64,000 bases of DNA from Corallococcus caeni. GTDB lineage: Bacteria > Myxococcota > Myxococcia > Myxococcales > Myxococcaceae. The stretch spans positions 32,396-96,395 of the forward strand of contig NZ_BTTW01000008.1 in NCBI RefSeq assembly GCF_036245865.1, in the 5' to 3' direction. The notes under the pieces were generated by a model. The model was not told the DNA's origin. It did no database searches and saw only the letters and a list, made by a program, of their open reading frames with translations. Below, in pieces: positions 53,601 through 59,853 of the stretch (positions are counted from its first letter, which is position 1; each line of letters starts with the position of its first letter). A program made the position numbers and the translations under genes.

Positions 53601-53766
53601 CGGGGGCTCCCTCCAATGGCAGACACCGGGGCTCGCCAGCCCCGGACCCTTGATGCCTCCCGGGGGCGCGGCCAACTTGGAGGGTGGGATAATCCCATCC
53701 CCGCTCGAGTCACCGGGGCGGTCCAGCGGCCGGGCGCCAGCCGGACGCCACCGGGGGAGGACGTCA

Positions 53767-54432
53767 ATGGCAACCGCGAACAAGAACCCGGGGGCCCAGG
53801 GGGGGCCTTCTTCCCCGCCCGGCGTGAAGAACGCCCAGCCCGACGTGCAGGGCGGCGGCTTGCAGGCCCAGGAGCCCAGGACGGGCGCTGGCATCACCCG
53901 CCGCGAGTCCCTTGCACAGGCCCTCGGCCGTGAGGCCATTCCCGCGAGCCCGTTCGGATTGCTGCGGCGGATGCTGGAGGACATGGACCAGCTCGTCACC
54001 GGCTTCGGAGGCCGGGGCCTCGGCCTCCGCGGTGGCCTGCTGGAGGAAGGCCTCTGGTCGCCGCAGGTGGACGTGCTGGAGCGGAACGGCAACCTCATCG
54101 TGAAGGCGGACCTGCCGGGCATGAAGCAGGAGGACATCCACGTCGAGCTGCTGAAGGACCTGCTCGTGATTGAAGGCGAGCGCAGCTTCGAGGTGGAGGA
54201 GGAAGAGGAGGCCGAAGGGGTCTGGAGCCTGGAGCGCGGCAGCGGCTCCTTCCGCCGCGTCATCCCGATTCCGGAAGACATCGACCTGGAGACGGTGCAG
54301 GCGAACTTCGAGAACGGCGTGCTGGAGATCTCCCTGAAGCTCCCGGAGCAGGTGATCCAGGGCAAGCGCATCGAGGTGAAGGGCGGCTCGAGCGAGAAGG
54401 CCCGGCTGAAGCCTGGGAAGCCCATCCACTGA
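53767..54432 (+). CDS. Hsp20/alpha-crystallin small heat-shock protein with Gly-rich N-terminal extension
   Basis: WSPQVDVLERNGNLIVKADLPGMKQEDIHVELLKDLLVIEGER...GSFRRVIPIPEDIDLETVQANFENGVLEISLKLP. Confidence 0.85.
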   Translation: MATANKNPGAQGGPSSPPGVKNAQPDVQGGGLQAQEPRTGAGITRRESLAQALGREAIPASPFGLLRRMLEDMDQLVTGFGGRGLGLRGGLLEEGLWSPQVDVLERNGNLIVKADLPGMKQEDIHVELLKDLLVIEGERSFEVEEEEEAEGVWSLERGSGSFRRVIPIPEDIDLETVQANFENGVLEISLKLPEQVIQGKRIEVKGGSSEKARLKPGKPIH

Positions 54433-54449: not shown

Positions 54450-55145
54450 TCAGTGCCTGTGTCGGTGGCCCTCGTCCTCCACGACGGCCGCCGCCACCTT
54501 CTCCGCCGAGCCGCGCAGCTCCTCCTCGGACGGTGAGTGCCAGGACTCGAAGGCGAACAGCTTTCGCATCAGCTTGCCGGCCTGATAGCCCGGCCGCAGG
54601 CCGATGGCGTCGAACATCCACGCCAGCGCCTGGTCCGCGAAGGTGGACCAGGCCTCCTCACAGCCCGTGGCCTCCATGGTGAGGTTCATCGTGGTGACGA
54701 TTCCATCCGACAGCGCGAGCGCCCGGATGTCGTGGTCGCCCGGCCCCGAAGGCAGGTCCCGCTTCAGCGCCTCGAAGTGGGCGTCCAGCTTGAACAGCCA
54801 TTGGCGCGACCGCTCCAGCGCGTCGAGCATGAGCTGGAGGTTGTATTCCACGTCCATGTTTGGCGTGGGCTTCTGCCTGAAGAAGCGATGACACCAGCAG
54901 TAGCCGCCGAAGCTCTCATTGCCCAGATACAGGCCCGTCTCCGTGTACCAGGGCCCCAGGTTCTGGTGGAGCAGCCGCTGGATGTGTTTGGCCATCGTGT
55001 CGTGCTGCTCGTCCGTGAGCTTGCGCGTCCCCGGGGGCACGCGTGGTGCCAGGTATTCACGCAGCAGGCGGATGAGCTTCTCCGGCTCATACCCCTCCAG
55101 GCTGTCGCGGATGCGCAGCCAATGGCCCAGGGCCGACCTGCTCAT
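54450..55145 (-). CDS. Hypothetical protein, paralogue A (GGYCWCH motif family)
   Basis: LGPWYTETGLYLGNESFGGYCWCHRFFRQKPTPNMDVEYNLQLMLDALERSR; start overlaps paralogue B stop (ATGA). Confidence 0.6.
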   Translation of the reverse strand: MSRSALGHWLRIRDSLEGYEPEKLIRLLREYLAPRVPPGTRKLTDEQHDTMAKHIQRLLHQNLGPWYTETGLYLGNESFGGYCWCHRFFRQKPTPNMDVEYNLQLMLDALERSRQWLFKLDAHFEALKRDLPSGPGDHDIRALALSDGIVTTMNLTMEATGCEEAWSTFADQALAWMFDAIGLRPGYQAGKLMRKLFAFESWHSPSEEELRGSAEKVAAAVVEDEGHRHRH

Positions 55146-55807
55146 ACGGCCACCTCCGCCACCCGCGCCGCCGCGGTCCGGAGGGCTTCCGGGGTGGGCG
55201 AGATCCACGACTCGAACACGAAGGCGGTGTCCAGCTGCTCCTGCGTGGCGTCCGACAGGGGCAGCCCCATCGCCTCGATGCACCACGACATGGCGTCCTG
55301 CGCGACCTGGTACCAGGTCTCCTCACAGGACGTCGTCTCCGCCGTCAACTCCACGGTCCGCACCAGCCCCTCCGCGAGCGCCTTCGCCCGGAGCGCCTGG
55401 TCGTCAGCCGCCAGCTCGAGCTGACGGCGCGCGGTCTGGTACACGCCGTCCAGCGCGTACAGGAACGAACGGATCCGCTCCAGCGCCTCCAGCATGAGCT
55501 GGATGTTCGCATCCACGTCCATCGTCCGATGCGGCGGGTTCTGGTTGAAGAACGAGTGACACCAGCAATAGCCCCCCAGCACTTCGTTGCCCAGGGGCAG
55601 GCCGCTCTCGATGTACCAGGGCCCCAGTTCGGCCTGGAGCAGGTCCTTCACGGCGTTCTTCGCCTGCTTGAGTCGGGCCTGATGGATGCTGCCGGACCGC
55701 AAGGGGGCCAGGACCTCTCGCAGCCGGGCCGCCAGTGATTGCGGCGCATAGGCATCCAGGCTGTCGCGGATGCGGCGCCACGTGAAAGCCGAAGCGTTGC
55801 TGGTCAT
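55142..55807 (-). CDS. Hypothetical protein, paralogue B (GGYCWCH motif family)
   Basis: LGPWYIESGLPLGNEVLGGYCWCHSFFNQNPPHRTMDVDANIQLMLEALERIR; start overlaps the Fic stop (ATGA). Confidence 0.6.
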   Translation of the reverse strand: MTSNASAFTWRRIRDSLDAYAPQSLAARLREVLAPLRSGSIHQARLKQAKNAVKDLLQAELGPWYIESGLPLGNEVLGGYCWCHSFFNQNPPHRTMDVDANIQLMLEALERIRSFLYALDGVYQTARRQLELAADDQALRAKALAEGLVRTVELTAETTSCEETWYQVAQDAMSWCIEAMGLPLSDATQEQLDTAFVFESWISPTPEALRTAAARVAEVAV

Positions 55808-56574
55808 TCGGGCACCTCGTTGCGGCACGGGGCGTCCGGCCCCGCGATGCTCCGGGCCAGCAGCCTTGCCAGCCGCGTGTAGTTCACCGCGTCCCCCGGA
55901 TGCTTGGGCCACAGCACCACGGGCGCCAGCGGCGGCGTGGGCAGCCGGCCCCGGCGCAGCATGTATTCCAACCACAGCCGCGCCGCGCGGGCGTTGCCGT
56001 CCGGGAAGGGGTGGAAGAAACACAGGTCCAGGTACAACCGCGTGGCATGCGCCACCGGATGGCGTTCCTCCCGCGCGTCCGCCTCCACCTTCTCGCGGAA
56101 GGCCGCCTCCAGGCCGGGCACGTGCGCGTAGCGGTGCGCGCCACCCCACGCGAAGGCGTCCCCGGTGCGGAAGCCCGTGGGTCCGCCCAGCAGCTCCGAC
56201 TGGACCTCCACCATCCGGGGGAAGGTCAGCGGCTCGCCCGCGTCCGCGAGCCGCCGCACCCGGCCCAGGGCCCGCTCGAAGCGCTCCGTCCGCGCCGGCC
56301 CCTGGGATTCATGGGCCGGTGCGTCATGGCGGAGGAGGAAGTCCTCCTGGGCGCCCGTCTCCCGGAAGGGCTGCCTCGCCGCCGCCGCCAGGTCCGCCCG
56401 GAGCGCGGGCAGCGCCCAGTCCAGGGCGCGCGTGGCCTCCCGGTGGGGCGCGAGCTGCTCGGTGGAGGCGGGGGCTTTCACTCGGGGTCCGGGGGGAGGC
56501 GGGGGGCGGGAAGCCCAGCACGAAGCAGTCCGGGTGACAAACACCCCGGGCCTCGGGGCCCTCCTGTGGGTCAT
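55804..56574 (-). CDS. Fic/Doc family protein with variant motif (alternative shorter start at 56214)
   Basis: HPFPDGNARAARL versus canonical HPFx(D/E)GNGRxxR; trimmed because 56636..57556(+) encodes a real gene. Confidence 0.6.
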   Translation of the reverse strand: MTHRRAPRPGVFVTRTASCWASRPPPPPGPRVKAPASTEQLAPHREATRALDWALPALRADLAAAARQPFRETGAQEDFLLRHDAPAHESQGPARTERFERALGRVRRLADAGEPLTFPRMVEVQSELLGGPTGFRTGDAFAWGGAHRYAHVPGLEAAFREKVEADAREERHPVAHATRLYLDLCFFHPFPDGNARAARLWLEYMLRRGRLPTPPLAPVVLWPKHPGDAVNYTRLARLLARSIAGPDAPCRNEVPE

Positions 56575-56635: not shown

Positions 56636-57556
56636 ATGAAGACGTTCCTCGTGGTCAACCCGCGCAGCGCCAACGGGCAGACGGGGAAGCGCTGGGTGGA
56701 GATCTCCGCGCTGGTGGGCAAGGTGCTCGGTGAGTTCGGGCACGGCTTCACCAGCGGCGGCATGGATGCGGCGCGTCTGGCGCGGCAGGCCATCGACGAC
56801 GGTTTTGAGTGCATCGTCGCGGTGGGCGGCGACGGCACCCTCAACGAGGTCACCAACGGCTTCTTCCGCGACGGGCAGGTCATCAACCCGCAGGCCACGC
56901 TGGCCCTGCTGCCCCGGGGTACCGGCGGCGACTTCCGCCGCACCTTCGGGTGGGACCTGGAGCTGACGTCCGCGCTGGAGCGGCTGCGCACGGAGAAGAC
57001 GGAGCCCTTCGACGTGGGGCGGCTGGAGTTCATCGACAACGACGGCAACCCGGCCACGCGCTTCTTCGCCAACATCGCCTCGTTCGGCGTGAGCGCGGTG
57101 GTGGCCCGCGAGGTGAACCAGGGCAGCAAGGCGCTGGGCGGCAACCTGAGCTTCATGTGGGGCACCGTGAAGGGCCTCCTGAAGTACCAGGAGCGGCAGG
57201 TGCGCCTCACGGTGGATGGTGGCCCCCCGGAGACGGTGAGCGTCACCGCGGTGGCCGTGGCCAACGGCCGCTACTTCGGCAGCGGCATGTTCGTCGCGCC
57301 CGATGCGGTGACGCACGACGGCCTCTTCGACGTCACCATCTGGTCCAACTACGGCCTGTCCGACTTCGTCCTCAAGTCCAAGGGCGTCTACAACGGCGAC
57401 CACGTCACCTGGAAGGGCACGCGGCGGCTGCGCTGCCGCACCATCCACGCGGAGTCGGAGGACGGCGACGTGTTCCTGGACGTGGACGGCGAGACGCCGG
57501 GCCGGCTGCCCTGCACCATGACGATGTTGCCCGGCGCCATCCGCCTCAAGGTCTAG
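56636..57556 (+). CDS. Diacylglycerol/lipid kinase catalytic-domain protein (YegS/BmrU-like)
   Basis: FLVVNPRSANGQTGKRW...CIVAVGGDGTLNEVTNG...LPRGTGGDF. Confidence 0.85.
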   Translation: MKTFLVVNPRSANGQTGKRWVEISALVGKVLGEFGHGFTSGGMDAARLARQAIDDGFECIVAVGGDGTLNEVTNGFFRDGQVINPQATLALLPRGTGGDFRRTFGWDLELTSALERLRTEKTEPFDVGRLEFIDNDGNPATRFFANIASFGVSAVVAREVNQGSKALGGNLSFMWGTVKGLLKYQERQVRLTVDGGPPETVSVTAVAVANGRYFGSGMFVAPDAVTHDGLFDVTIWSNYGLSDFVLKSKGVYNGDHVTWKGTRRLRCRTIHAESEDGDVFLDVDGETPGRLPCTMTMLPGAIRLKV

Positions 57557-58439
57557 CGCCGGAGCGGGGCGGGCACGGCGCGTCCTCCACCGGCGCGCTC
57601 GCGCTGGCGTGGGGCGCGGGTGTGGGGCGGTACCAGCTGGTCTGTCCAATCAGGTGCCGCGTGAAGCCGTCCTCCACCAGGGGTGAGGCCTCCGCGGCGC
57701 CCAGCACCAGGTAGCCATCCGCCTGGAGCATCCGCCGCACGCGGGCGAGCACCGCGCGGCGGGTGGGCACGTCCCAGTAGATCATCACGTTGCGAAGGAA
57801 GACGAGGTCCACCGGCGCCTCCGGTGGGAAGTCGTCCATGAGGTTGAGCGGCCGCAGCTCCACCGGCCTGCGCACCTGTTCGTTCAGCCGCCACCCGTCG
57901 CGCTCCGGGCGGAAGTAGCGCTGGCGCAGCTCCGGCGTCAGGCCCCGGTGGATCTCCTGCGCGTCGTAGCGGGCCTCGCTGGCGCGCACGAGCGCGCGCG
58001 TGGAGAAGTCGGTGGCGAGGATGCGCACCGTCCAGCCGGTGATCAGCAGCCCGGCCTCCGCCAGCGTCATCGCGATGCTGTAGGGCTCCTGGCCGTAGGC
58101 GCACGCCGCGCACCAGATGCGCAGCGTGCGCGTGCGGGAGCGCTTCGCCAGCAGGGCGGGCAGGACCGTGGAGCGCAGGGCGTCGAACACGGGCGCGTCG
58201 CGGAAGAAGGCCGTCTCGTGGTTGGCCAGCGCCTCCGCCAGCCGCTGGTGGAGCGGGCTGCTCTCCGGCTGTGAGCGCAGCCGCGCGACCAGGGCGGAGA
58301 TGTCCGGCAGCCGCTCCTCGCGCAGGAGCGACATGAGCCGCGTCTCCACCAGCGCGTGCATGTCGGGCTCCAGCACGAGCCCGGAGCGGCGCAGCACGCG
58401 CTGCCGCAGGTACGCGAAGTCGTCGGCAAGCAGGGACAT
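57546..58439 (-). CDS. cheR: Chemotaxis protein methyltransferase CheR
   Basis: LRIWCAACAYGQEPYSIAM; FLRNVMIYWD; trimmed from the composite 677-aa ORF. Confidence 0.85.
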   Translation of the reverse strand: MSLLADDFAYLRQRVLRRSGLVLEPDMHALVETRLMSLLREERLPDISALVARLRSQPESSPLHQRLAEALANHETAFFRDAPVFDALRSTVLPALLAKRSRTRTLRIWCAACAYGQEPYSIAMTLAEAGLLITGWTVRILATDFSTRALVRASEARYDAQEIHRGLTPELRQRYFRPERDGWRLNEQVRRPVELRPLNLMDDFPPEAPVDLVFLRNVMIYWDVPTRRAVLARVRRMLQADGYLVLGAAEASPLVEDGFTRHLIGQTSWYRPTPAPHASASAPVEDAPCPPRSGARP

Positions 58440-58441
58440 GC

Positions 58442-59506
58442 TCAGGTCCTCCGTCCGCGTGGATCCACGCGCCGCACCAGCTCCAGGGCCAGGGCGTCCA
58501 GGGGCACCACCGCGTCCGCGAGCCCCGCCTGCTCCACCGCGCCCGGCATGCTGCCGATGACGCAGCTGGCCTGGTCCTGCACCACCACCTGACCGCCCGC
58601 CTCGCTCACCTTGCGGCAGCCGCGCAGCCCGTCCTGGCCCATGCCGGTGAGCACCACCGCCAGCACCCCCGCGCCGTACACCTCCGCCGCCGAGCGGAAG
58701 AGCAGGTCCACCGCCGGACGGCACGCGTTCTCCGCCGGCCCCTGGTGCGTGAGCAGCCGCACGCCCGTCGCGTCCCGGCACACGGCCAGGTGGAAGTCCC
58801 CGGGGGCCACCCACACCGAGCCGGCCCGCACGGACGCACCCGTCACGGCCTCGCGCACGCAGAGCGGGCTCACGCCCTGCAACCGCTCCGCGAGCAGCCG
58901 CGTGAAGAGGGGCGGCATGTGCTGCACGACGAGCACCGGCACCGGGAGGTCCGCTGGCAGCGCGGACACCACGCGCACCAGCGCGCCCGGGCCTCCCGTG
59001 GACGCGCCGATGACGATGGCCTCCACCCGCGCGGGCACCAGCGGCCGGGGCTGGGGTGCGCGCGTCACGGGGAACGGCGCCATCGTGGCGGAAGCGGGGC
59101 GAACGTTGAGCGCCTTGAGCTTGCGCACCAGCTCGTCCCGCACGGCCTCCACCGTGACGTTCATTCCGCCCGCGGACGTGGGCTTCGTCACGTAGTCGCG
59201 GGCTCCCAGCGCGAGCGCCTCCAGGGTCAGCATGCCGGCGCGTTCGGTGAGCGCGCTGAACATCACCACGGGCAGGTCCGGGGCGCGCTGGCGCAGGAGC
59301 TTCAGCGTCTCCAGCCCGTCCAGCTCCGGCATCTCCAGGTCCAGCAGCACCACGTCCGGCTGGAACTGCTCCACCTTCGCCAGCGCGATGCGGCCGTTGG
59401 GCGCGGTGGCGACGACCTCCAGGCCTGGATCCGCGTCCAGCAGCAGTGACACCTGCCGCCGCACCACGGCCGCGTCGTCCACCACCAGGACCCGGATGGG
59501 GTTCAT
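58442..59506 (-). CDS. cheB: Chemotaxis response regulator protein-glutamate methylesterase CheB
   Basis: REC domain (VLVVDDAAVVR...LLDLEMPELDG) + methylesterase (IVIGASTGGPGAL...VQHMPPLFT...GMGQDG). Confidence 0.9.
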   Translation of the reverse strand: MNPIRVLVVDDAAVVRRQVSLLLDADPGLEVVATAPNGRIALAKVEQFQPDVVLLDLEMPELDGLETLKLLRQRAPDLPVVMFSALTERAGMLTLEALALGARDYVTKPTSAGGMNVTVEAVRDELVRKLKALNVRPASATMAPFPVTRAPQPRPLVPARVEAIVIGASTGGPGALVRVVSALPADLPVPVLVVQHMPPLFTRLLAERLQGVSPLCVREAVTGASVRAGSVWVAPGDFHLAVCRDATGVRLLTHQGPAENACRPAVDLLFRSAAEVYGAGVLAVVLTGMGQDGLRGCRKVSEAGGQVVVQDQASCVIGSMPGAVEQAGLADAVVPLDALALELVRRVDPRGRRT

Positions 59507-59517
59507 TCGCACTCGCG

Positions 59518-59853
59518 TCACCGGACCGCGTGCGCGACCGGGCAGCGGCCCGCGGGGGCGCTGGAGGCCGCATCGCCATACACCTCGTGGCGTGGCCGGC
59601 TCGCGAGGATGGCGCTTGCGCCCCAGTCCGTCACGCGGTGGAAGGCCTCGGACGCGACGAAGGCGTCGAAGCCCTCGCGGCTGTGCCACTCGGAGACGAT
59701 GAGGTAGCGCCCCGGTGCCCCCACGCTCTTGAACAGCTCCGTGTGCGCGTGCGCCGGCAGCATCCGCATCGCCTCCAGGACGAGCGCGAACTTCCGCTCG
59801 AAGGCCTCCGCCTTGCCCTCACGCACCTCGTAGTTCATGCCGATGGTGACCAT
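59518..59853 (-). CDS. ABM-like small alpha+beta-barrel protein
   Basis: 111 aa MVTIGMNYEVREGKAEAFERKFALVLEAMR...YLIVSEWHSREGFDAF. Confidence 0.55.
   Translation of the reverse strand: MVTIGMNYEVREGKAEAFERKFALVLEAMRMLPAHAHTELFKSVGAPGRYLIVSEWHSREGFDAFVASEAFHRVTDWGASAILASRPRHEVYGDAASSAPAGRCPVAHAVR

What the first reader, a model, noticed from the sequence alone, without database searches (positions are those of the whole stretch)
54450..56574. Three-gene operon: variant Fic protein followed by two tandem paralogues of unknown function, joined by ATGA overlaps
On the minus strand the order is Fic (HPFPDGNARAARL; the second Gly of the GNGR motif is Ala), then paralogue B, then paralogue A. Each junction is ATGA (stop/start overlap), which implies translational coupling. 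A and B share the conserved block LGPWY.E.GL.LGNE..GGYCWCH.FF.Q.P....MDV..N.QLMLEALER.R, and I recognise no known family for them. Fic enzymes are AMPylating toxins and regulators that are usually controlled by a partner protein, so A and B could be targets, antitoxins or a novel regulatory pair. A lipid-kinase gene is transcribed divergently.
Basis: seen in the sequence. Interest (0 to 1): 0.55.

Follow-up and report, generated by a model that had tools for sequence, protein, structure and literature searches.

The report
Fic enzyme with duplicated partner protein
A Corallococcus operon encodes an unusual Fic (protein-modifying) enzyme and two copies of an unnamed helical protein; across soil bacteria that protein is always encoded beside this kind of Fic enzyme or fused to it, so it is a dedicated partner whose job is still unknown.

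Summary
Three minus-strand genes (Fic, B, A) are joined by ATGA overlaps. A and B are 44% identical paralogues with no Pfam, NCBIfam, PADLOC or PDB-fold match. One correction: Fic most likely starts at GTG 56481 (225 aa), not ATG 56574.

Main result: A and B belong to an unnamed all-helical family, here called X, with 212 clusters at 50% identity. X is tied to one Fic clade whose motif is HPFxDGNARAAR (60 of 62 homologues).
- Every locus with enough flanking DNA carried this Fic next to X: 14 Myxococcaceae loci, 2 actinomycete genomes and 34 of 36 metagenome contigs found with an X-only DNA pattern.
- At least 35 protein clusters are single-chain X-Fic fusions.
- AlphaFold models a fusion as one compact unit (pTM 0.84).
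- The clade lacks the canonical inhibitory motif [ST]xxxE[GN].

The A/B duplication arose within Corallococcus. B evolves faster and has been lost or truncated in some strains.

Best reading: X is a constitutive regulatory or specificity subunit of a non-canonical Fic enzyme, not a classical labile antitoxin. Whether X is an inhibitor, an adaptor or a substrate remains undecided. This is a new variant of a known kind and moderately interesting.

The parts
55804..56481 (-). Fic-domain gene, 225 aa from GTG 56481. An alternative in-frame ATG at 56574 would give 256 aa.
   Evidence: Pfam PF02661 at 35.4 bits, cut-off 24. Orthologues are annotated as 225 aa Fic family proteins. GC3 is 0.93 in the ORF, while the upstream extension has atypical codon-position GC.
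55978..56013 (-). Fic active-site motif HPFPDGNARAAR. The second Gly of the canonical GNGR is Ala.
   Evidence: Coordinates. GNAR is present in 60 of 62 homologues and in most metagenome partners.
55142..55807 (-). Paralogue B, 221 aa: a member of the X (Fic-partner) helical family.
54450..55145 (-). Paralogue A, 231 aa: the X-family member closest to the single-copy partners in other Corallococcus strains.
   Evidence: Translation. It is 44% identical to B. The single-copy loci L009 and L010 nest inside the A clade. dN/dS is 0.32-0.52.
55804..55807 (-). ATGA overlap of the Fic stop codon and the B start codon.
   Evidence: Read directly from the sequence. The same 4-nt overlap occurs in L001-L005 and L012-L013.
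55142..55145 (-). ATGA overlap of the B stop codon and the A start codon.
   Evidence: Read directly from the sequence. Conserved in L001-L005, L007 and L008.
55547..55576 (-). B: GGYCWCHSFF Cys/His loop. The equivalent in A is at 54879-54908.
   Evidence: Coordinates. C81 is conserved in 84% and H84 in 79% of the family. The loop is missing in Hyalangium X and in several fusions.
55310..55336 (-). B: TTSCEETWY, the family signature T.C.[DE]AWY. The equivalent in A is at 54645-54668.
   Evidence: W165 is conserved in 98% and Y166 in 84%. Coordinates.
55196..55216 (-). B: FESWISP, the family signature F.SW..P in a loop. The equivalent in A is at 54531-54551.
   Evidence: Conservation is F198 89%, S200 93%, W201 91%, P204 95%. 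The segment is a loop in the model.
56636..57556 (+). Divergently transcribed lipid kinase (DAGK_cat + YegS_C). It is a conserved neighbour within Myxococcaceae only and is not shown to be part of the module.
   Evidence: Pfam match. It is adjacent to Fic in the Corallococcus, Pyxidicoccus and Hyalangium loci where that flank is present. It is absent from the 36 metagenome loci.

Best explanation
A and B are two recently duplicated copies of an unnamed all-helical protein family (X, about 220 aa). X is the dedicated partner of one clade of Fic enzymes, the clade with active-site motif HPFxDGNARAAR.

**Inferred:** X binds the Fic domain permanently as a non-catalytic regulatory or specificity subunit. 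The complex would resemble the single-chain X-Fic fusion proteins found in other bacteria, and X would govern when, or on what target, the Fic enzyme transfers a nucleotide-derived group.

**Shown:**
- The strict genomic coupling of X and this Fic clade, including the fusions.
- Translationally coupled expression signals (overlapping start and stop codons).
- Absence of the canonical Fic inhibitory motif from the clade.
- Purifying selection on all three genes.

**Also inferred:** physical binding, and the regulatory or specificity role. The chemistry (AMP or another group) and the target are unknown.

In Corallococcus the duplication gives two alternative partner subunits. A is the ancestral type and is retained wherever that end of the locus was sequenced. 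B is a faster-evolving, dispensable variant.
For: **Association starting from X.**
- All 11 genome loci found with an X pattern carry Fic immediately upstream.
- An X-only DNA pattern that contains no Fic codons retrieved 36 metagenome contigs. Of these, 34 have a Fic domain in the same ORF (22, one with X itself fragmented) or in the adjacent ORF (12). The other two are cut at a contig end on a side where Fic could lie.
- A member only 20% identical to B (P0171) is followed by Fic with a 4-nt overlap.

**Association starting from Fic.** Eight of eight clade members examined have X adjacent or fused. They are from Hyalangium, Pyxidicoccus, Corallococcus, Amycolatopsis, Micromonospora and MAGs.

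**Clade features.** The catalytic His, Asp, Asn and first Arg are kept, with Ala fixed in place of the second Gly (60 of 62). The final Arg is kept in most but replaced in about 10 mainly actinomycete homologues. Only 2 of 62 homologues show an isolated, non-conserved [ST]xxxE[GN] match, at different positions.

**No other partner.** No other gene family recurs around the module.

**Selection.** dN/dS is below 1 for Fic, A and B.
Against: No direct evidence of binding or of any effect on activity exists. The tools did not expose model coordinates, so the X-Fic interface could not be inspected.

Several features also fit an antitoxin: X evolves faster than Fic, the pair has a patchy cross-phylum distribution, and it occurs on large Streptomyces plasmids.

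X has conserved Ser, Tyr and Thr residues in loops (S200, Y166, T159) that could be modification sites. That would make X a substrate rather than a regulator.

Gene order is not fixed. It is Fic then X here, and X then Fic in most other lineages.
Confidence: 0.5

Rival explanations
1. Classical type II toxin-antitoxin module. Fic is a growth-arresting toxin and X (A and/or B) is a labile antitoxin that neutralises it. Free Fic would be released under stress or phage attack.
For: The module is a compact, overlapping two-gene unit in varied genomic contexts. It is present on large actinomycete plasmids. The partner evolves faster than the enzyme: B 55%, A 69% and Fic 78% identity in L007, and dN/dS follows the same order. 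Class I Fic toxins are known to be controlled by a separately encoded partner (PMC3667792; Fic-1-AntF, PMC13327609).
Against: At least 35 clusters and 22 of 36 metagenome loci have X and Fic in one reading frame. A covalent fusion is incompatible with release by antitoxin degradation. X is about 220 aa, has no DNA-binding domain and lacks the [ST]xxxE[GN] helix that defines FicA/VbhA-type antitoxins. The locus sits at one chromosomal position next to the same lipid kinase across three myxobacterial genera. There are no relatives in 2.9 million viral contigs. In L039, X appears frameshifted next to an intact Fic, though this could be a sequencing error.
Confidence: 0.2
2. X is the physiological substrate of the Fic enzyme, or an auto-modified regulatory domain. 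Fic would modify a conserved hydroxyl residue of X, for example S200 in F.SW..P or Y166 in AWY, and A and B would be two alternative substrates.
For: Nearly invariant hydroxyl residues sit in predicted loops: S200 at 93% and Y166 at 84%. Strict co-inheritance fits a dedicated enzyme-substrate pair. Many Fic proteins auto-modify (PMC3667792).
Against: The window's own A copy has Ser in place of Y166. Most of the conserved residues are Trp, Phe and Pro, which is more typical of a core or interface than of a modification site. There is no precedent among the Fic families examined for a dedicated fused substrate domain.
Confidence: 0.12
3. X is a second enzyme or a metal- or ligand-binding sensor domain that uses the Cys/His cluster (GYCWCH, or WCC..H, plus T.C.D). 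The module would then be bifunctional or redox- or metal-sensing.
For: C81 is conserved in 84%, H84 in 79% and C161 in 50% of members, alongside acidic residue 163. The cluster persists in two different spacings, CxCH and CCxxH.
Against: The cluster is missing entirely from Hyalangium X (GGYVSSYFF) and from several fusions (P0064, P0072, P0074, P0079). The loop has the lowest model confidence. No enzyme or metal-binding fold was matched.
Confidence: 0.08

Closest known systems
Class I Fic toxin-antitoxin pairs (VbhT/VbhA, EcFicT/EcFicA, Fic-1/AntF)
   Same: A Fic enzyme is encoded in an operon with a dedicated, separately translated partner that forms a complex with it. The genes are adjacent and overlapping. 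The partner is expected to control Fic activity (PMC3667792; PMC13327609).
   Different: Known antitoxins of this class supply an inhibitory helix with the motif [ST]xxxE[GN], are encoded immediately upstream of Fic (PMC3667792), and are small proteins (from general knowledge, not checked here). X is about 220 aa with ten helices, lacks that motif, lies downstream of Fic here, and is often covalently fused to Fic. The Fic motif is GNAR, not GNGR.
Class II Fic proteins (SoFic, FICD/HYPE, BT_2513, M. marinum Fic)
Doc/Phd and other motif-variant Fido enzymes (Doc kinase, AnkX phosphocholine transferase)
   Same: The Fic signature deviates at or near the second Gly. Such deviations are associated with chemistries other than AMPylation (PMC3667792; the motif groups in PMC4454073, include GNKR and GNTR but not GNAR).
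   Different: Doc has Lys at this position and lacks the final Arg. AnkX has DANGR..V. Here the motif is DGNARAAR with both Arg residues retained, and the partner is unrelated to Phd.

Membership tests
Fic/Fido superfamily (PF02661) | Profile match above the curated threshold | tested here: met
   PF02661 scores 35.4 bits against a cut-off of 24, E 1.9e-8.
Fic/Fido superfamily (PF02661) | Fic fold with a beta-hairpin flap and an alpha4-loop-alpha5 active site | tested here: met
Canonical AMPylating Fic enzymes | Strict signature HxFx(D/E)GNGRxxR | tested here: not met
   The motif is HPFPDGNARAAR, with Ala replacing the second Gly. This is fixed in 60 of 62 homologues. PMC3667792 states that deviating motifs are taken to indicate other activities.
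Class I FicTA toxin-antitoxin | Partner protein carries an inhibitory helix with [ST]xxxE[GN] | tested here: not met
   No conserved match in A, B or the family alignment. The nearest is T159-x-x-x-[E/D]163-[A/T], followed by WY.
Class I FicTA toxin-antitoxin | Small antitoxin gene immediately upstream of the Fic gene | tested here: not met
   A and B are 231 and 221 aa and lie downstream of Fic. In other lineages X is upstream of Fic, but it is still about 220 aa.
Class I FicTA toxin-antitoxin | Fic is toxic when expressed alone and is neutralised by the partner | not testable with these tools
   This needs expression experiments.
Class II/III Fic (intramolecular inhibition) | [ST]xxxE[GN] within the Fic polypeptide, N- or C-terminal to the core | tested here: not met
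   A regex scan of 62 clade members found only two isolated, non-conserved matches. There is no conserved Glu in alignment A4.
Doc kinases | Motif HxFx(D/N)(A/G)NKR with no final Arg | tested here: not met
   The residue is Ala, not Lys, and the final Arg is present.
Polymorphic toxin / immunity cassette | Toxin domain at the C-terminus of a delivery protein (or carrying a secretion signal), followed by immunity gene(s) | tested here: not met
   Fic is a stand-alone 225-aa protein with no other Pfam domain. Partner and enzyme are fused in many lineages, which makes no sense for an exported toxin and its immunity protein.
X family (unnamed Fic-partner domain, defined here) | Profile match plus the signature G.W ... 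T.C.[DE]AWY ... W.LE..G ... F.SW..P | tested here: met
   A and B seeded the profile. It finds 212 clusters at E<=1e-3. The signature residues are 84-98% conserved. The window's A copy has WS in place of WY.
X family (unnamed Fic-partner domain, defined here) | Encoded next to, or fused with, a Fic of the GNAR clade | tested here: met
   The window fits this pattern. So do all assessable loci.

The most novel reading that the evidence does not exclude
The X domain plus GNAR-Fic may be a fourth, structurally distinct mode of Fic control, alongside classes I-III. In this reading a large helical partner, fused or free, replaces the inhibitory helix. Together with the fixed Gly-to-Ala change, it would give the enzyme a different substrate or chemistry. 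In Corallococcus the paralogues A and B would then act as interchangeable subunits that redirect or retune one Fic enzyme.
Probability: 0.3. Interest if true: 0.6.

Novelty: new variant of a known kind. Interest (0 to 1): 0.45.

Why it matters
Fic enzymes are studied as toxins, effectors and stress regulators. Their control is currently explained by one device, an inhibitory helix with a conserved glutamate supplied in three ways (classes I-III).

This clade is found in Myxococcota, Actinomycetota and many soil metagenomes. It has no such helix, carries a fixed active-site substitution, and has an obligate 220-aa partner with no known fold relative.

Defining this partner family would allow hundreds of "hypothetical protein" annotations to be renamed. 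It also gives a clean experimental system, since the separate and fused forms occur naturally, for asking how a non-canonical Fic is regulated and what it modifies. In Corallococcus, the A/B duplication is a natural experiment in partner diversification.

Tried and rejected
**X is not a known family.** Single-sequence and 63-member scans of Pfam found no recurrent match, and single-sequence NCBIfam and PADLOC scans of A and B found nothing.

**The PDB sequence hit to RecA is an artefact.** The low E-values come only from tandem-fusion RecA chains with no stretch passing on its own. The single RecA C-terminal domain scores E 0.38.

**No viral link.** There are no structural relatives among viral proteins and no relatives in viral contigs, so a phage or anti-phage origin has no support.

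**The lipid kinase is not a general third component.** It is conserved next to Fic only in Myxococcaceae and is absent from the 36 metagenome loci.

**No canonical inhibitory Glu pairs with the last motif Arg.** Actinomycete pairs that lost that Arg still keep the X acidic residue, so a D163-R168 salt bridge is not supported.

**Searches that failed or were uninformative.**
- The afdb50 fold library was unavailable.
- The search for related loci rejected the diverse alignments.
- The third word-indexed protein search added nothing.
- Literature searches for the GNAR motif or for myxobacterial and actinomycete Fic partners found nothing relevant.
- Promoter, terminator, tRNA and Rfam scans found nothing informative.

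Full report
**1. What is in the window**

The minus strand between 54450 and about 56500 carries three consecutive ORFs.
- The first is a Fic-domain protein (Pfam PF02661, 35.4 bits against a cut-off of 24). Its active-site motif HPFPDGNARAAR lies at 56013-55978.
- It is followed by B (55807-55142, 221 aa) and A (55145-54450, 231 aa).
- Both junctions are ATGA stop/start overlaps.
- A and B are 44% identical over their full length (E 6e-64).
- GC3 is 0.90-0.93 in all three ORFs, in a window that is 70% GC overall.

- The 93-nt extension has atypical codon-position GC.
- It is not conserved in other genera.
- Orthologues are annotated as 225 aa, which corresponds to GTG 56481.

The organism is a Corallococcus: hits reach 92-93% identity. 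Flanking genes are a divergent DAGK_cat/YegS_C lipid kinase followed by CheR on one side, and Hsp20 and PhzF on the other.

**2. A and B have no known relatives by sequence or fold**

Pfam, NCBIfam and PADLOC give nothing for A or B. A Pfam scan of 63 diverse family members gives no recurrent family.

A profile search of all PDB sequences gives only an artefactual hit to tandem-fusion RecA chains; the single RecA domain scores E 0.38.

An AlphaFold2 model of B is confident (pLDDT 86.7, pTM 0.86) and all-helical, with ten helices.
- Foldseek against viral structures finds nothing.
- A profile-profile comparison with Fic shows no relation.

**3. The family and its signature**

An exhaustive HMM search of 1.84 billion cluster representatives finds 212 clusters at E<=1e-3, of which 68 are at E<=1e-10. 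I call the family X.

Conserved features, in B numbering:
- G62.W64.
- A Cys/His loop, either G[WY]C.CHS or GGVV..WCC..HS.
- T159.C.[DE]AWY166.
- W175.LE..G.
- F198.S200-W201..P204.

The Cys/His loop is missing in Hyalangium X and in several fusion proteins, so it is unlikely to be essential.

**4. X is an obligate companion of one Fic clade**

*Starting from X*
- All 11 species-representative genome loci found with an X peptide pattern carry Fic directly upstream.
- A DNA pattern built only from X signature codons retrieved 36 metagenome contigs.
- Of these, 34 carry a Fic domain in the same ORF (22, one with X itself fragmented) or in the adjacent ORF (12).
- The remaining two are cut at a contig end on a side where Fic could lie.
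- P0171, only 20% identical to B, is followed by Fic with a 4-nt overlap.
- Two very short contigs, L015 and L060, could not be assessed.

*Starting from Fic*
- Eight of eight clade members examined have X adjacent or fused.
- They come from Hyalangium, Pyxidicoccus, Corallococcus, Amycolatopsis, Micromonospora and MAGs.

*Fusions and other neighbours*
- At least 35 distinct clusters are X-Fic fusion proteins of about 410-550 aa.
- An AlphaFold2 model of one fusion, P0063, has pTM 0.84 over 426 residues, which means the two domains are confidently packed.
- No other gene family recurs near the module.
- The module also occurs on 23 large Streptomyces, Kitasatospora and Embleya plasmid records, annotated "Fic family protein | hypothetical protein".
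- It is absent from 2.9 million viral contigs.

**5. The Fic clade is itself distinctive**

Sixty of 62 homologues have GNAR where canonical AMPylating Fic enzymes have GNGR. The catalytic His, Asp, Asn and first Arg are always retained. The final Arg is retained in most and replaced in about 10, mainly actinomycete, homologues.

None of the solved Fic structures in the five alignments shown has Ala at this position. A published motif classification lists GNGR, GNKR and GNTR groups but not GNAR (PMC4454073).

The literature states that strict HxFx(D/E)GNGRxxR goes with adenylylation, and that deviating motifs are taken to indicate other activities. It also reports that 90% of canonical Fic proteins carry an inhibitory helix, either in trans (class I) or in cis (classes II and III) (PMC3667792).

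This clade has no conserved [ST]xxxE[GN], either in Fic or in X. The closest feature in X is T159-x-x-x-[E/D]163-A, followed by WY.

**6. History of the A/B pair**

Pyxidicoccus, Hyalangium and some Corallococcus strains have one X gene after Fic.

A neighbour-joining tree places the duplication within Corallococcus, after the split from Pyxidicoccus.
- The single-copy loci L009 and L010 nest inside the A clade, so B was lost secondarily.
- In C. coralloides KYC2213, B is truncated at residue 140.

B evolves faster than A, and A faster than Fic.
- Identity to the window in L007 is 55% for B, 69% for A and 78% for Fic.
- dN/dS is 0.34-0.66 for B, 0.32-0.52 for A and 0.18-0.51 for Fic.
- All three are therefore under purifying selection, weakest on B.

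**7. Interpretation**

*Shown:* X and GNAR-Fic are a single evolutionary and genetic unit.

*Inferred:* they form a permanent complex in which X acts as a regulatory or specificity subunit.
- The frequent covalent fusions argue against a classical labile antitoxin.
- So do the large size of X, the absence of a DNA-binding domain or inhibitory motif, and the stable chromosomal position across three myxobacterial genera.
- An inhibitory role for X within a stable complex remains possible. It would parallel the relation between class I and class II Fic proteins, and the Fic-1-AntF complex, which has its own activity (PMC13327609).

Two alternatives could not be excluded.
- X could be the substrate, given conserved S200 and Y166 in loops.
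- X could be a Cys/His sensor or enzyme.

**8. Verdict**

The finding generalises to an unannotated Fic-partner domain family attached to a non-canonical Fic clade. I rate it a new variant of a known kind (a partner-controlled Fic enzyme) and of moderate interest.

Noticed in passing
window 56636-57556 (+); L011-L014: The divergently transcribed DAGK_cat/YegS_C lipid kinase stays next to Fic in Corallococcus, Pyxidicoccus and Hyalangium, although the genes beyond it differ (CheR, CBM96, DUF2306, DUF72). It is absent from non-myxobacterial loci. It could be shared regulation, a candidate target, or just lineage synteny.
   Followed up: partly
L028-L051 (metagenome loci), L054, L056: Separately encoded X-then-Fic pairs often lack the last Arg of the Fic motif (GNARSAF, GNGRAAM, GNARSAA). 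Fused forms and Fic-then-X forms keep GNARAAR. Architecture and active-site detail therefore seem to co-vary.
   Followed up: partly
P0127, P0129, P0137, P0146; L016:424-2013: Some X proteins are about 500-530 aa and carry a C-terminal extension of about 300 aa with no Pfam match. P0127 follows a GNAR-Fic gene with a start/stop overlap.
   Followed up: partly
L039:2840-4119; L047:2192-3381: In L039, X is split over three reading frames next to an intact Fic. In L047, X is fragmented and the Fic motif is HPFEGGNAR. These may be decaying modules or sequencing errors.
   Followed up: partly
L006:6001-7145 (C. coralloides KYC2213); L009, L010: Paralogue B is truncated at residue 140 in one strain and absent in two others, while A is retained. 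B is therefore dispensable.
   Followed up: yes
window 54645-54668 (-): The window's A copy reads CEEAWS where 84% of the family, including A orthologues such as P0021, have WY.
   Followed up: no
window 53650-54432 (+): The Hsp20/alpha-crystallin gene has an unusually long, low-complexity, Gly/Pro-rich N-terminal extension of about 140 aa. The domain starts at residue 144 of 260, and the start codon may be mis-assigned.
   Followed up: no
window 57546-59689 (-): A CheR methyltransferase gene is followed by a CheB-like gene, part of a chemosensory cluster that flanks the lipid kinase. CheR matched Pfam. The CheB assignment rests only on reading the ORF translation.
   Followed up: no
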